The position numbers and the translations under genes were made by a program. DNA of 64,000 nt from Escherichia phage vB_EcoM_VR20: sequence record NC_028894.1; one strand, written 5' to 3'. How positions within the stretch are numbered: position 1 is the stretch's first letter; every line of letters starts with the position of its first letter. Positions 17,998 through 48,052 of the stretch are shown in pieces. The notes beneath the pieces are model-generated. The model had not been told where the DNA came from. It ran no database searches and was given only the letters and a program-made list of their open reading frames with translations.

Positions 17998-18114
17998 CTA
18001 TTTAGTGCTCTTCATAATAGCAGCACGAGCTTTCATCTCGTTAACAATTTCAGTTATTCGGTTTGCAGAGATAACCATCTCGTCGAGAATCTTACTAATA
18101 TTCTGTTTCATCAT
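17998..18114 (-). CDS. hypothetical small protein, 38 aa (uvsY.-1 position)
   Basis: Hand-translated ORF whose ATG overlaps the uvsY stop. Confidence 0.35.
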   Translation of the reverse strand: MMKQNISKILDEMVISANRITEIVNEMKARAAIMKSTK

Positions 18115-33970: not shown

Positions 33971-34318
33971 TTACTTATAAAGACAAGGAACAGCTTTATA
34001 ATGACAGGTCACAAATTTCTGCTTAACTTCTTTAGCCTGCTTAAGTCCCAGAGCAACCAGAGGATGTGGAACGTTTGCAATCTTGCCAACCGGAAGAGGA
34101 GTCAAATCGCCTACTTCACAGAAGCCTTCAGGAACATCTGAACCAATCGAAAATACTTCACACATCTCGGGAATTTCACCCTGATGAAGTTTTCCGATAA
34201 CGATACCTGATGCCGTAGTTTCTTCATCACCAGCTTGCTTTGGCTCAGAAACCAAAATAATATATTCACCTACTGCTTTAATTGGTAATTCCATATTTAA
34301 TCCATGTTGTTTGGTCAT
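33971..34318 (-). CDS. 31: GroES-like co-chaperonin for capsid folding
   Basis: C-terminal half nearly identical to T4 gp31; exact start uncertain. Confidence 0.9.
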
Positions 34319-34349
34319 GTATTAATAATAACACGCGTTGTTTGAAGCA

Positions 34350-34649
34350 TTAAAGGACGAGCAGAGTCTCGGTCTGCAAACCATTCACAGAAATCAATTT
34401 ATTGAAACAGAATGAACGCCATTCATTAAGCTTGGTATCAAATACCCGGATATAGCTAACTGGTTCTTTATGAGCTTCTGGACCAGGGGCCTGGATTTCT
34501 TTATACGGCAGCAGGTCCAGGTCGCGAGTGCAAGTCATACGACGGATGCTACCATCTGCTTTTTCAAACAGAACTTCGTGAAAACCAACAGACAAAATAG
34601 TCTTGACTTTTTCACGGAGACGAATTGTTTCTTGTTCAGTTAAAATCAT
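34350..34649 (-). CDS. hypothetical protein, 99 aa (31.1 position)
   Basis: ORF and synteny. Confidence 0.6.
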   Translation of the reverse strand: MILTEQETIRLREKVKTILSVGFHEVLFEKADGSIRRMTCTRDLDLLPYKEIQAPGPEAHKEPVSYIRVFDTKLNEWRSFCFNKLISVNGLQTETLLVL

Positions 34650-43513: not shown

Positions 43514-45769
43514 TCAAAGTTTACAGGCGGAGCAGTCTTCTGCTTTAGGAGCTTCGATTTCGTAATCGTCTGTACCGGAACCATCTCTAGTGTTATGATA
43601 ATAAAGGTTTTTTCCACCAAAATACCAGAAGTACATCAAGTCGTCAAGCATAACTGACATCGGAACTTTTCCTTTCGGATAATTCTGCGGGTCATAATAC
43701 GTATTCGCCGATGCTGACTGACAAATCCATTTCAACATAATCGCGACTTGGGTCAGATAAGGTTTGTTACCCTGCTTAGCTAACACCCATGCGTAATCGT
43801 ACAATCCTTTATTGTGCTCAATATTGGGCACGACTTGATTAAAGGAACCCTCTTTTGACTCTTTAATAGAGACTGGTCCACGCGGAGGTTCGATACCGTT
43901 TGTACTGTTAGAAACTTGGGAAGATGACTCACAAGGCATAAGTGCTGATAATGTGCTATTACGGATGCCATGTTCAACCAGGTCTTCCCGCAACTGCGCC
44001 CAGTCACAAACGTAGTTTGGAGCTGCGATTTGGTCAATCTTTTTATTGTACCAGTCGATAGGTAATTCGCCTCGAGCCCAACGAGTGTCTGAATAATATT
44101 CGCAAGGTCCTTTTTCTTTGGCGAGCTTGATTGATGCTCGGATAAGGCCATATTGTAATCTCTCGAACAGTTCATGCGTTAAATCGTTTGCATCAGCGTA
44201 GGAAGCGAAATTGCTTGCCAGCCATGCAGCATAGTTAGTAACCCCAACACCCAGGTTGCGGCGTTTTTTGGCTTTCAGAGCTTCTTTAACCGGATAACCC
44301 TGATAGTCCAACAGGTTGTCAAGAGCACGAACTTGAACTTCGGCTAGCTCGTTAATCTTATCTTGGTCCTGCCAGTCAAAACTATCCAGAACAAATGCAG
44401 ACAATGTGCACAATCCGATTTCAGCATCTTCGCTGTTTACATCAGTGGTCGGGATTGCAATTTCGCAGCAAAGGTTCGATTGACGAATCGGAGCCTTGTC
44501 ACGGATGAACGGAGTGTAGTCATTCACGTTGTCAACGAACTGTGGATAAACCCTGGCTGTCCCGGAACGTTCGGTCATGAATAATTCAAATACATCTTTT
44601 GCTTTGATACGTTTCTTACGAACTGTCGGGTCTTTTTCTAAGGCTTCATATAACTCACGGAATTTATCCGGGTTATCAAAATATGAATAATACAATTCAC
44701 CGCCAGCTTCGTGTGGACTAAACAGAGTGATGTAATCATTCTTGGCCAGTCGTTCCATCATCAGGTTATTCAACTGGACACCATAGTCCATATGCCTGAT
44801 ACGGTTTTCTTCAACGCCTTTGTTGTTCTTCAGAACGAGTAAATTTTCAACTTCCAAATGCCAAATAGGATAATAAGCAGTAGCAGCGCCGCCACGGATT
44901 CCACCTTGTGAACATGATTTAACAGCCGTTTGGAAATGTTTCCAGAACGGAATAACACCAGTATGCTTGACTTCACCCATACCGATTTTCGAACCTTCAG
45001 CACGAATCATGCCAACGTTGATACCGATACCTGCACGCTTACTGATATATTCGATGATTGAATTAGCAGTCTTATTGATTGACTTCAGGGAGTCAGCCGC
45101 TTCGATAACCACGCAGGAACTGAACTGTCTTGTAGGTGTTCTGGCGCCCGCCATGATAGGTGTGGGCAACGAAACCTGTCGTGTAGATACTGCATCATAA
45201 AAACGGCAAACGTGCTTCAGACGGTCCGTTGGTTCATCCTGGTGCAGTGCCATGCCGATAGCCATGATAGCGAATTGCGGAGTCTCGTAAATTTTACCGG
45301 TGGTTTTATCTTTAACCAGGTATTTCTCTTTCAACTGCATCGCGCCTGCATAAGTCAGGTCAAAATCACGTTCGTGCTTGATACGAGATTCCAGATAAGT
45401 AATCTCTTCGGCAGAATAACTTGACAACAGTTCCGGGTCGTATTTGCCTTCATTGACACAATAAGAAATCTGGTCAATAAAAGAACGCGGTTCGAACTGG
45501 CCATAAACATCTTTACGCAGAGCAAACATCGTAGCCTTCGCTGCAACGTATTGGTAATCTGGTTCTTCAACCGAGATAAGCCCAGCAGACACTTTGATGA
45601 TAACCGTCTGAATATCGCGAGTAGTCATACCATCGCGCAGATGTGGTTTGATTGTTTCGTATAATTCATACGGGTCGATATTGGTTCCTTCACATGACCA
45701 GGAAAGAACTTTAATAATTTTCTGGCCATCAAAATCTTGAGATACGCCACTACTTTTTTGTACTTGCAT
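43514..45769 (-). CDS. nrdA: ribonucleotide reductase large subunit
   Basis: 751 aa; synteny. Confidence 0.95.
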   Translation of the reverse strand: MQVQKSSGVSQDFDGQKIIKVLSWSCEGTNIDPYELYETIKPHLRDGMTTRDIQTVIIKVSAGLISVEEPDYQYVAAKATMFALRKDVYGQFEPRSFIDQISYCVNEGKYDPELLSSYSAEEITYLESRIKHERDFDLTYAGAMQLKEKYLVKDKTTGKIYETPQFAIMAIGMALHQDEPTDRLKHVCRFYDAVSTRQVSLPTPIMAGARTPTRQFSSCVVIEAADSLKSINKTANSIIEYISKRAGIGINVGMIRAEGSKIGMGEVKHTGVIPFWKHFQTAVKSCSQGGIRGGAATAYYPIWHLEVENLLVLKNNKGVEENRIRHMDYGVQLNNLMMERLAKNDYITLFSPHEAGGELYYSYFDNPDKFRELYEALEKDPTVRKKRIKAKDVFELFMTERSGTARVYPQFVDNVNDYTPFIRDKAPIRQSNLCCEIAIPTTDVNSEDAEIGLCTLSAFVLDSFDWQDQDKINELAEVQVRALDNLLDYQGYPVKEALKAKKRRNLGVGVTNYAAWLASNFASYADANDLTHELFERLQYGLIRASIKLAKEKGPCEYYSDTRWARGELPIDWYNKKIDQIAAPNYVCDWAQLREDLVEHGIRNSTLSALMPCESSSQVSNSTNGIEPPRGPVSIKESKEGSFNQVVPNIEHNKGLYDYAWVLAKQGNKPYLTQVAIMLKWICQSASANTYYDPQNYPKGKVPMSVMLDDLMYFWYFGGKNLYYHNTRDGSGTDDYEIEAPKAEDCSACKL

Positions 45770-45789
45770 GTTTTCCTCTGTTATAAAAT

Positions 45790-45820
45790 GGGGTCATGCT
45801 TATACTAACACATGACCCCT
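45790..45820 (-). promoter_or_regulatory. 9-bp perfect hairpin GGGGTCATG-N12-CATGACCCC in the nrdA leader
   Basis: Seen directly; the nrdA GAGGAAAAC ribosome-binding site follows. Confidence 0.45.
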
Positions 45821-45835
45821 GGAGCGGAATCGTAT

Positions 45836-46135
45836 TTATGCGCCCAAATCCTCGAGCGAAAAGGTGTCTTTGAAAAGTTTGTTAACAACCAGAGCGATGA
45901 TATCCCCATGACATGACTTTGGTTTGCATGTACAAGCTAATCGCATTCCGCGAAGGGTTTCAAGGTGTTCTCTTTTGATTTCACCCGATTTAATCTTTGA
46001 TATGAAATATTCTTTAAAGTTCTTTATGTTTTCTTCTCGGGTACCATCTTTATATGGGTTTCCCCACATGGTACCCCGTTGAATATTCACATCAAAGTCG
46101 GATTGATATTTGTTAACAACCCGACAGGCTTTCAT
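45836..46135 (-). CDS. hypothetical protein, 99 aa (nrdA.1 position)
   Basis: ORF and synteny. Confidence 0.6.
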   Translation of the reverse strand: MKACRVVNKYQSDFDVNIQRGTMWGNPYKDGTREENIKNFKEYFISKIKSGEIKREHLETLRGMRLACTCKPKSCHGDIIALVVNKLFKDTFSLEDLGA

Positions 46136-46197
46136 AGTAGGAAGTTAAGCCCGACCATTATGGCCAGAAATAAAATACCGGCAATTTGAATTTTCAT
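46132..46197 (-). CDS. candidate 21-aa hydrophobic micropeptide MKIQIAGILFLAIMVGLNFLL
   Basis: Hand-translated; ATG overlaps upstream stop (TAATG) and stop overlaps downstream start (ATGA); GAGG 5 nt upstream. Confidence 0.4.
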   Translation of the reverse strand: MKIQIAGILFLAIMVGLNFLL

Positions 46198-46393
46198 TAT
46201 ACCTCGACAATAAACCAGATAGACCGATTGAAATCATCATATTCATACGATTTAATCACACGCATAACATAAAGTTCTTTACCCTGGACAAAAATCGTTG
46301 TTTTCTCTTTAGGCAGTTCATCGAGACTTATATTCATTTTTTCAAACAGCACCTCATTGGTGCCGTATCTATTGTTTACTATACGAATATTCA

Positions 46394-46394
<1 letters not shown>
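46197..46394 (-). CDS. hypothetical protein, 65 aa
   Basis: ORF coupled to td. Confidence 0.55.

Positions 46395-48052
<1,658 letters not shown>

What the first reader, a model, noticed from the sequence alone, without database searches (positions are those of the whole stretch)
46132..46197. Translationally coupled 21-codon hydrophobic micro-ORF between two early genes
The 62-nt gap between two minus-strand genes exactly holds an ORF for MKIQIAGILFLAIMVGLNFLL, a single transmembrane-helix-like peptide. Its ATG overlaps the upstream stop (TAATG), its TGA overlaps the downstream ATG (ATGA), and GAGG lies 5 nt upstream. This tight nesting is typical of real coupled genes and falls below normal ORF-calling thresholds.
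Basis: seen in the sequence. Interest (0 to 1): 0.5.

Follow-up and report, generated by a model that had tools for sequence, protein, structure and literature searches.

The report
Conserved unannotated 21-codon phage membrane-peptide gene
A 21-codon open reading frame wedged between two genes of a T4-like E. coli phage looks like a real, never-annotated gene for a tiny hydrophobic (probably membrane) peptide. It is kept intact under purifying selection in about 80 related phage genomes, but its job is unknown and small genes of this kind are already well known.

Summary
Window 46197-46132 (minus strand) encodes MKIQIAGILFLAIMVGLNFLL. Its ATG shares a base with the upstream stop (TAATG) and its TGA overlaps the downstream ATG (ATGA). 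The window is a Gaprivervirus-like T4 relative: frd, td, a 65-aa NrdA.2-like gene, the micro-ORF, a 99-aa DUF4326/NrdA.1-like gene, then nrdA.

In one sequence the ORF is only mildly improbable. Comparison decides it.
- A full-length 21-residue match occurs in 80 phage records, all Gaprivervirus or Dhakavirus. I read the DNA of 27 loci plus the window: 27 complete sequences all hold the intact 21-codon ORF, and one is cut by N's.
- There are 20 nucleotide haplotypes and no indels.
- Variable sites by codon position are 11/3/15, and pN/pS is 0.24.
- Of 5000 column shuffles, 0 matched "open in all sequences plus pN/pS this low".
- The stop/start overlaps are rebuilt in four different gene contexts.
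- The ORF persists, with pN/pS still 0.24, in genomes that lack the downstream gene. It is therefore not merely a ribosome relay.

It is absent from T4 and four other genera, never annotated, and matches no protein family. Expression, membrane location and function are untested. Verdict: a new member of a known kind (small hydrophobic phage protein), of moderate interest.

The parts
46132..46197 (-). 21-codon micro-ORF (MKIQIAGILFLAIMVGLNFLL plus TGA). It has an N-terminal Met-Lys followed by a 17-residue hydrophobic stretch.
   Evidence: GRAVY 2.02; residues 5-21 average 2.56. Conserved in 80 records. pN/pS 0.24.
46195..46199 (-). TAATG: the stop of the upstream 65-aa gene and the start of the micro-ORF share one base.
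   Evidence: The same overlap follows td in Gaprivervirus. Dhakavirus uses ATGA instead.
46202..46205 (-). GAGG, a Shine-Dalgarno-like core with a 4-nt spacer before the ATG.
   Evidence: Present only when the 65-aa gene is upstream. Genomes where td is upstream have no clear SD.
46132..46135 (-). ATGA: the micro-ORF stop overlaps the start of the DUF4326 gene. No SD-like motif lies in the 20 nt before that ATG.
   Evidence: Dhakavirus has TAATG at this junction.
46197..46394 (-). Upstream 65-aa gene, NrdA.2-like. Present in only some relatives.
   Evidence: phrog_2458, E 4.5e-19. BLASTP against T4 NrdA.2, E 5e-5. Absent in PSD2001, TH57 and all Dhakavirus read.
45836..46135 (-). Downstream 99-aa gene, DUF4326 / T4 NrdA.1-like. 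Present in only some relatives.
   Evidence: Pfam PF14216, E 1.9e-21. Absent in VR7, VR25, SP18, CJ20, P896, 212, VR5, PSD2002 and IME341.
46394..47254 (-). td (thymidylate synthase). It is part of a chain of overlapping cistrons, frd/td/65-aa/micro-ORF/DUF4326, and lies directly upstream of the micro-ORF in many relatives.
   Evidence: overlaps at 47251-47254 and at 46394. Annotations.
45790..45819 (-). Conserved hairpin between the last small gene and the nrdA ribosome-binding site. In DUF4326-less genomes it lies about 16 nt after the micro-ORF stop.
   Evidence: -19.3 kcal/mol, z -2.8. A different sequence forms the same hairpin in Dhakavirus.

Best explanation
This is a genuine protein-coding micro-gene confined to the Gaprivervirus and Dhakavirus genera of T4-like phages.

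Proposed mechanism:
1. It sits in the frd-td-...-nrdA transcription unit. Ribosomes that terminate at the stop of the preceding gene (td or the NrdA.2-like gene) restart at the overlapping ATG, by termination-reinitiation.
2. The product is a 21-residue peptide: Met-Lys at the N-terminus, then a 17-residue hydrophobic helix.
3. I infer that the peptide partitions into the host inner membrane, N-terminus inside.
4. I infer, more weakly, that it acts through helix-helix contact with itself or with a membrane protein. The candidate contact residues are the invariant positions I3, Q4, F10, L11, M14, L17, N18 and L21.
5. Where a DUF4326 gene follows, the peptide's stop overlaps that gene's SD-less start. 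The micro-ORF then also hands ribosomes on, as a secondary relay role.

Shown here: ORF integrity, peptide-level purifying selection, conserved overlaps, and independence from both neighbouring genes. Inferred: translation, membrane insertion, topology, partner binding, and early or middle timing.
For: - The ORF has exactly 21 codons in all 27 complete sequences read (26 fetched loci plus the window), and 80 of 80 tblastn records match full length.
- There are 20 nucleotide haplotypes, 13 distinct peptides and no indels. The non-coding spacer just downstream does show indels.
- Variable sites by codon position are 11/3/15.
- pN/pS is 0.24 overall, 0.23 and 0.27 within the two genera, and 0.23 between them.
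- All other five frames carry stops, except frame +2, which is open only in Dhakavirus and has pN/pS 1.65.
- Of 5000 column shuffles, 237 stay open and none also reaches the observed pN/pS. The open shuffles average 0.71.
- Replacements are almost all I/L/V/A/T exchanges.
- The start overlaps the upstream stop in four gene contexts, in two different forms. The micro-ORF is the only element always present between td and nrdA in these genera.
- In nine genomes without the DUF4326 gene the ORF keeps its length, ends in its own TAA, and still shows pN/pS 0.24.
- Hydropathy is 2.56 over residues 5-21.
- There is no Rfam match, and the RNA fold is unremarkable at z -0.29.
- Stop/start overlaps of these types mediate strict coupling in E. 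coli (PMC6728339).
Against: - There is no expression, ribosome-footprint or proteomic evidence for this peptide or for any homologue.
- Twenty-one codons give limited statistical power, and pN/pS 0.24 is weaker constraint than the neighbouring DUF4326 gene shows (0.06).
- Hydrophobic ORFs arise easily in AT-rich spacers (PMC11188072).
- A 17-residue hydrophobic stretch is marginal for spanning a bilayer.
- The clustering of invariant residues on one helical face is not significant (permutation p 0.06).
- One isolate, CJ20, carries G16R and K2Q.
- A canonical SD is present only in one context.
- Sequences of 52 of the 80 records were not read base by base.
Confidence: 0.75

Rival explanations
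1. Relay-only ORF. Translating the 21 codons matters because it carries ribosomes across a 61-nt gap from the upstream gene to the SD-less DUF4326 gene, or keeps the mRNA covered. The peptide itself has no function.
For: Both ends overlap neighbouring genes, forming a chain of coupled cistrons. No SD-like motif lies in the 20 nt before the DUF4326 ATG. The overlaps are preserved in two forms across genera. Termination-reinitiation is well documented (PMC6728339).
Against: A pure relay would not constrain amino acids, yet pN/pS is 0.24 with conservative replacements. In nine genomes there is no downstream coupled gene: nrdA lies about 65 nt away with its own GAGGAAA SD. Even so, the ORF keeps 21 codons and pN/pS 0.24. 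Other genera achieve coupling simply by overlapping the flanking genes directly.
Confidence: 0.1
2. The gene is real, but the peptide is a toxin-like membrane-perturbing agent comparable to the 19-aa IbsC or 26-aa ShoB type I toxins. It would depolarise the host inner membrane during infection rather than bind a specific partner.
For: Size, composition and lack of charged residues beyond K2 resemble IbsC. IbsC depolarises cells within minutes and tolerates truncation to 15 residues (PMC8309996). Hydropathy is shown.
Against: There is no sequence similarity to any toxin family in Pfam, NCBIfam or PHROGs. No Rfam antitoxin RNA matches, and no promoter-like site was found on the opposite strand over the ORF. 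Continuous coupled expression with nucleotide-metabolism genes from early in infection fits poorly with a fast-acting toxin. The invariant polar residues Q4 and N18 suggest specific contacts, although that signal is weak.
Confidence: 0.15
3. Not a gene. The ORF is a chance open frame in a spacer that is conserved for a DNA- or RNA-level reason, such as a recombination junction of a hyperplastic region, a regulatory RNA or a promoter.
For: 28% of shuffles of this single sequence stay open. The td-nrdA interval is a cassette-exchange hot spot, and an insertion/deletion junction of the DUF4326 gene lies exactly at the ORF's stop. In DUF4326-less genomes the stop forms TATAAATA, the late-promoter consensus.
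Against: Substitutions concentrate at codon positions 3 and 1 and avoid position 2 (11/3/15). The joint shuffle test gives 0 of 5000. The RNA fold has z -0.29 and Rfam gives no hit. There are no indels in 20 haplotypes, whereas the adjacent non-coding spacer has them. TATAAATA is absent from the window and from all contexts that contain DUF4326.
Confidence: 0.05
4. The region is the 5' part of a longer NrdA.1/DUF4326 protein, as annotated in JS98, ESCO10 and CLB_P2. Alternatively, it is fused to DUF4326 by a programmed frameshift that gives a membrane-anchored DUF4326.
For: Three GenBank records annotate a 131-139-aa NrdA.1 that starts inside td and reads through this region in another frame. 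That frame is open in the Dhakavirus haplotypes.
Against: That frame contains a stop in every Gaprivervirus haplotype and has pN/pS 1.65 where it is open. The DUF4326 domain starts at residue 4 of the 99-aa protein. T4 NrdA.1 is only 9 residues longer. The DUF4326 frame is -1 relative to the micro-ORF in Gaprivervirus but +1 in Dhakavirus, and there is no slippery site, so a conserved frameshift fusion is implausible. The micro-ORF also persists without any DUF4326 gene.
Confidence: 0.02

Closest known systems
Bacterial small single-helix inner-membrane proteins of 50 aa or fewer found by comparative genomics (for example the E. coli small membrane proteins of the Storz laboratory, or KdpF, AcrZ and MgtS-type modulators; from my own knowledge). 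See also the enterobacterial intergenic smORF microproteins of PMC11188072.
   Same: Very short, one hydrophobic helix, missed by gene callers, and recognised through conservation and purifying selection. The likely mode of action is helix-helix contact with a larger membrane protein.
   Different: It is phage-encoded, shorter than almost all characterised examples, and shares no sequence similarity with any of them. It is embedded by double stop/start overlap in a nucleotide-metabolism operon. Membrane location and any partner are untested.
Type I toxin peptides IbsC (19 aa) and ShoB (26 aa) of E. coli (PMC8309996)
   Same: Comparable length and hydrophobicity, a predicted single alpha-helix, and no C-terminal positive charges.
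   Different: No antisense RNA antitoxin or opposite-strand promoter is detectable. There is no homology. It is co-translated with metabolic genes rather than tightly repressed. Toxicity is untested.
Translationally coupled overlapping gene pairs (ATGA / TGATG-type termination-reinitiation; PMC6728339)
   Same: Co-directional genes with 1-nt or 4-nt stop/start overlaps at both ends. The overlap is conserved in relatives.
   Different: Here a whole cistron of only 21 codons is nested between two such overlaps. The coupling itself has not been measured.
Small phage gene families predicted from global phage genomes (Fremin et al. 2022, Cell Rep 39:110984; cited in the reference list of PMC11188072 but not readable here)
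   Same: It belongs to the same class: conserved, unannotated small ORFs in phage genomes.
   Different: I could not check whether this family is in that catalogue. The peptide is absent from the 15-billion-protein collection queried here.

Membership tests
Protein-coding gene under purifying selection | The reading frame is intact, with fixed start and stop, across diverged relatives. | tested here: met
   21 codons in all 27 complete sequences read (26 fetched loci plus the window) and full-length matches in 80 of 80 records. 20 haplotypes, no indels.
Protein-coding gene under purifying selection | There is an excess of synonymous over non-synonymous change and three-base periodicity of substitutions, specific to one frame. 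| tested here: met
   pN/pS 0.24, codon-position pattern 11/3/15, and other frames closed or at 1.65. None of 5000 column shuffles is as good.
Protein-coding gene under purifying selection | The ORF is demonstrably translated. | not testable with these tools
   No ribosome-profiling or proteomic data for these phages were found.
Small single-pass membrane protein | A hydrophobic segment long enough for a transmembrane helix, flanked by a positive charge. | tested here: inconclusive
   Residues 5-21 have mean Kyte-Doolittle hydropathy 2.56, and K2 is the only charge. Seventeen residues is marginal. No dedicated topology predictor or structure model was available, because the tools need at least 30-40 aa.
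Small single-pass membrane protein | Membrane localisation of the product. | not testable with these tools
   Requires fractionation or imaging of a tagged peptide.
Translationally coupled (termination-reinitiation) cistron | Co-directional stop/start overlap (ATGA or TAATG/TGATG) with the neighbouring gene. | tested here: met
   TAATG upstream and ATGA downstream in the window. The overlap is conserved or rebuilt in all contexts.
Translationally coupled (termination-reinitiation) cistron | Downstream translation depends on upstream translation. | not testable with these tools
   Needs reporter fusions with premature stops, as in PMC6728339.
Type I toxin-antitoxin (Ibs/Sho-like) | A cis- or trans-encoded antisense RNA antitoxin at the locus. 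| tested here: not met
   No Rfam family at E up to 1 in 45600-46600 on either strand. No plus-strand promoter-like site over the ORF. This is a weak test.
Type I toxin-antitoxin (Ibs/Sho-like) | Sequence membership of a known toxin family. | tested here: not met
   No Pfam, NCBIfam or PHROG match. No tblastn hit in plasmids.
Type I toxin-antitoxin (Ibs/Sho-like) | Toxicity or membrane depolarisation on overexpression. | not testable with these tools
   Experimental.
Leader peptide / transcription attenuator | A short ORF that overlaps alternative terminator and antiterminator RNA structures upstream of the regulated gene. | tested here: not met
   The fold of 46100-46230 is no better than shuffles (z -0.29). 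In the window the nearest hairpin is 300 nt downstream, beyond the DUF4326 gene. Amino-acid-level constraint is not expected for most leader peptides.

The most novel reading that the evidence does not exclude
The 21-residue peptide is a dedicated phage effector that docks, through its conserved Q4/F10-L11/M14/L17-N18/L21 face, onto a specific host inner-membrane protein. It is the one indispensable element of the otherwise freely shuffled td-nrdA interval in two phage genera. That would make it one of the shortest functional phage proteins with a defined target. A more speculative version has it tethering the phage deoxynucleotide-synthesis enzymes, whose genes surround it, to the membrane.
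Probability: 0.2. Interest if true: 0.6.

Novelty: new member of a known kind. Interest (0 to 1): 0.4.

Why it matters
If translated, this is a conserved phage protein of only 21 residues that every annotation pipeline has missed in about 80 sequenced therapeutic-candidate E. coli and Shigella phages. It shows concretely that the 30-codon floor of gene callers hides selected genes even in the best-studied phage subfamily. It also offers a very small, easily synthesised peptide whose target, if any, in the E. coli inner membrane could be found with simple genetics. The locus is also a clean natural experiment for termination-reinitiation: one micro-cistron, two overlap types, and genomes with and without a downstream gene.

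Tried and rejected
- **Longer or more distant homologues.** tblastn of the peptide at E up to 10 found only the 80 Gaprivervirus and Dhakavirus records in phages and nothing in plasmids.
- **Degenerate DNA pattern scans.** These returned 5 contigs from IMG/VR whose lengths match known isolates and 1 metagenome contig, a Gaprivervirus with the same gene order as the window. They added no new diversity.
- **The search for homologous proteins.** Structure prediction was not attempted, since the tool's stated minimum is 30 aa.
- **Family libraries.** Pfam, PHROGs and NCBIfam gave nothing.
- **Analogous micro-ORFs in other genera.** T4, Mosigvirus phage 55, Mosugukvirus PM2, Karamvirus KMB20 and Marfavirus Marfa have none. 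Marfa's annotated 43-aa ORF is hydrophilic and unrelated.
- **RNA element.** Rejected: no Rfam hit and fold z -0.29.
- **Late promoter.** Rejected for the window: no TATAAATA lies between td and nrdA.
- **Extended NrdA.1 or frameshift fusion.** Rejected (frame relations differ between the genera).
- **Helical-face conservation.** Suggestive but not significant, p 0.06, with a comparable peak at 60 degrees. I do not rely on it.
- **td as a pN/pS yardstick.** The ungapped comparison of td's 3' end gave 0.54. It is unreliable because td length differs among genomes (858-864 nt), so I discarded it.
- **Literature.** Searches found no paper on this ORF. The Mosigvirus 'Emp' peptide is a 109-aa protein at another locus.

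Full report
**1. What is in the window**

The minus strand of 43.5-47.9 kb carries these genes:
- frd (47844-47251)
- td (47254-46394)
- a 65-aa ORF (46394-46197), which matches phrog_2458 and weakly T4 NrdA.2
- the 21-codon ORF (46197-46132)
- a 99-aa DUF4326 / T4 NrdA.1-like gene (46135-45836)
- a hairpin (45819-45790)
- nrdA (45769-43514)

Megablast places the window in the Gaprivervirus group of T4-like E. coli phages, at up to 97% identity to pEC-M719-6WT.2 and the TH phages.

The micro-ORF encodes MKIQIAGILFLAIMVGLNFLL. TAATG joins it to the upstream gene and ATGA to the downstream gene. GAGG lies 4 nt before the ATG. The gap is 61 nt rather than 62. frd/td, td/65-aa, 65-aa/micro-ORF and micro-ORF/DUF4326 all overlap by 1 or 4 nt, so the micro-ORF is one link in a chain of five coupled cistrons.

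**2. Is it more than chance?**

From the single sequence, only modestly:
- 28% of shuffles of the ORF interior remain open.
- Hydropathy (GRAVY 2.02) is in the top 1.5% of short ORFs in the window.
- It is the only ORF of at least 15 codons that fills a same-strand gap end to end, among 28 gaps.
- AT-rich spacers are biased towards hydrophobic ORFs (PMC11188072), so composition alone proves little.

**3. Comparative evidence**

Distribution:
- tblastn finds a full-length 21-residue match in 80 phage records, all Gaprivervirus or Dhakavirus.
- That number is consistent with every genome of the two genera in the collection having it: 31 records carry a Gaprivervirus-type td and about 44-49 carry a Dhakavirus-type td.

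I fetched 27 of these loci and read them alongside the window, 28 sequences in all.
- One, CUA3, is interrupted by N's.
- The other 27 each have an ATG-initiated ORF of exactly 21 codons.
- Together they give 20 nucleotide haplotypes and 13 peptide variants, with no indel.
- Variable sites fall 11/3/15 on codon positions 1/2/3.
- Replacements are almost all among I, L, V, A and T.

Selection:
- Nei-Gojobori pN/pS is 0.24.
- All other frames contain stops, except frame +2, which is open only in Dhakavirus and has pN/pS 1.65 there.
- Shuffling alignment columns keeps the phylogeny and composition but destroys codon structure. It leaves the frame open in all sequences in 237 of 5000 trials. None of the 5000 also reaches the observed pN/pS, and the open shuffles average 0.71.
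- The ratio is the same within Gaprivervirus (0.23), within Dhakavirus (0.27) and between them (0.23).
- The neighbouring DUF4326 gene is more constrained, at 0.06.

**4. Context independence**

The td-nrdA interval is a cassette-exchange region. I found four arrangements:

| Context | Gene order | Found in | Upstream / downstream overlap |
|---|---|---|---|
| A | td, 65-aa, micro-ORF, DUF4326 | the window and many Gaprivervirus | TAATG / ATGA |
| B | td, micro-ORF, DUF4326 | Gaprivervirus PSD2001, TH57 | TAATG / ATGA |
| C | td, micro-ORF, DUF4326 | Dhakavirus Bp7, JS98 and others | ATGA / TAATG |
| D | td, micro-ORF, hairpin, nrdA (no DUF4326) | VR7, VR25, SP18, CJ20, P896, 212, VR5, PSD2002, IME341 | start still overlaps the td stop; ORF ends in its own TAA |

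Some genomes add an 81-aa ORF before nrdA. The micro-ORF is the only element always present between td and nrdA.

In context D nothing is coupled downstream, because nrdA has its own GAGGAAA site about 65 nt away. The ORF still has 21 codons and pN/pS 0.24. This separates selection on the peptide from a pure ribosome-relay role.

Comparing the window with VR25 shows that the DUF4326 cassette is inserted or deleted precisely between the last sense codon of the micro-ORF and '...TAAATACGATTCC'. The micro-ORF is terminated after codon 21 either way.

**5. Where it is not found**

- T4 has td, nrdA.2, nrdA.1 and nrdA with direct overlaps and no micro-ORF.
- The same holds for Mosigvirus phage 55, Mosugukvirus PM2, Karamvirus KMB20 and Marfavirus.
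- IMG/VR and metagenome pattern scans added only genomes of the same two genera.
- The family is therefore clade-restricted. It most simply arose in the common ancestor of the two genera.

**6. Is it known?**

- No GenBank record lists a feature for it. Under the match only the flanking genes appear.
- Three records instead over-extend NrdA.1 through it in a frame that is closed in Gaprivervirus.
- Eight peptide variants are absent from a collection of about 15 billion proteins.
- Pfam, PHROGs and NCBIfam give no match, and plasmids give none.
- Literature searches found nothing on it.

**7. How it most likely works**

Shown:
- a frame-specific, peptide-level constraint;
- a start codon always fused to the preceding stop;
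- a stop fused to the next start wherever there is one.

Established knowledge: such overlaps give strict termination-reinitiation coupling in E. coli (PMC6728339).

Inferred:
- Ribosomes leaving td or the NrdA.2-like gene restart on the micro-ORF. A canonical SD (GAGG) exists only in context A, so reinitiation is probably the main route.
- The product has Met-Lys followed by 17 apolar residues (mean hydropathy 2.56). It would enter the inner membrane N-terminus-in by the positive-inside rule.
- Ten positions are invariant: 1, 3, 4, 5, 10, 11, 14, 17, 18 and 21. They include the only polar side chains, Q4 and N18. Most fall on one face of a helix, which hints at helix-helix contact with a partner or with itself. 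The periodicity test is not significant (p 0.06), so this step is weak.
- In contexts A-C the DUF4326 gene has no SD-like motif. The micro-ORF therefore probably also passes ribosomes on.
- Timing is assumed early or middle by analogy with T4 frd-td-nrdA (my own knowledge). A sigma-70-like site lies upstream of frd (47912-47884), and no late-promoter motif lies in the interval.

**8. Rivals**

- **Relay-only** is contradicted by context D and by the amino-acid constraint.
- **A non-coding conserved element** is contradicted by the codon periodicity, the shuffle test, the lack of RNA structure (z -0.29) and the absence of an Rfam hit.
- **N-terminal extension of, or frameshift fusion with, DUF4326** is contradicted by stops, by pN/pS 1.65, by the opposite frame offsets in the two genera, and by persistence without DUF4326.
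- **An Ibs/ShoB-like depolarising toxin** (PMC8309996) cannot be excluded as a function. It lacks the defining antisense RNA and any homology, and it fits poorly with constitutive coupling to metabolic genes.

**9. Verdict**

The feature is a new, clade-specific member of a well-known kind: small hydrophobic proteins and coupled micro-cistrons. A specialist would find it neat rather than astonishing. It matters mainly as a clean, testable example of a selected 21-codon phage gene that all pipelines miss. Interest 0.4.

Noticed in passing
window 45790-45819 (-); L018 about 586-615; alignment A1: A 10-bp hairpin (GGGGUCAUGU...GCAUGACCCC; -19.3 kcal/mol, z -2.8) sits just upstream of the nrdA ribosome-binding site. 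Dhakavirus has a hairpin of different sequence (GGUUCUAUG...UAGAACC) at the same place, so the structure is kept by covariation. Only the Gaprivervirus version is followed by a short U-run. Its function is unknown; it could be a terminator, a processing or stability element, or a regulator of nrdA translation.
   Followed up: partly
L008 1259-1269, L016, L017, L018, L027, L011 (alignment A1 columns 94-103): In genomes that lack the DUF4326 gene, the micro-ORF's last codon, its stop and the next three bases read CTATAAATA. This contains the T4 late-promoter consensus TATAAATA and is invariant in six sequences from both genera. The motif is absent at this place in the window.
   Followed up: partly
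L026 464-859 (JS98), L005 1164-1559 (ESCO10), L025 440-859 (CLB_P2): GenBank annotations extend NrdA.1 to 131-139 aa, with a start inside td, reading through the micro-ORF region in another frame. That frame has stops in all Gaprivervirus haplotypes and pN/pS 1.65, so the extension is probably an annotation artefact.
   Followed up: yes
L005 (ESCO10) and L006 (phage 212): These look like misannotated products. ESCO10 labels frd, td and nrdA all as 'thioredoxin'. In phage 212 the product names are shifted by one gene, so td is called dihydrofolate reductase and nrdA is called thymidylate synthase.
   Followed up: no
window 17998-18114 (-) and 34315-34350 (-): There are two further small ORFs nested against neighbouring genes. 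One is a 37/38-codon ORF (MMKQNISKILDEMVISANRITEIVNEMKARAAIMKSTK) whose ATG overlaps the upstream stop. The other is an 11-codon ORF that exactly fills a 31-nt gap. Their conservation was not checked.
   Followed up: no
window, whole: TATAAATA occurs 20 times against 4.2 expected, and no shuffle out of 100 reached 20. Most copies are on the plus strand in 0.8-16 kb and 53-64 kb, consistent with T4-type late promoters of the structural gene blocks.
   Followed up: no
window 46394-47254 versus TH40 (MT446411.1) and Yersinia phage P8 (PP693301.1): The td genes of TH40 and P8 are only 81% identical to the window's td. Their micro-ORF peptide is identical to the window's (for TH40 the nucleotide sequence too), and the 65-aa/micro-ORF/DUF4326 block is about 94-95% identical. 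This points to a recombination junction near the 3' end of td.
   Followed up: no
L001 1275-1520, L004 1328-1573, L030 2057-2302: An extra 81-aa ORF lies between the DUF4326 gene and nrdA in M719-6WT.2, PSD2001 and a metagenome contig. It is absent from the window. This is another sign that the td-nrdA interval is a hyperplastic cassette region.
   Followed up: no
L017 (CJ20) 501-566: One isolate carries K2Q and G16R, which puts an arginine in the hydrophobic core. This is the only non-conservative variant seen. Its td is also unusually divergent, at 83% identity.
   Followed up: no
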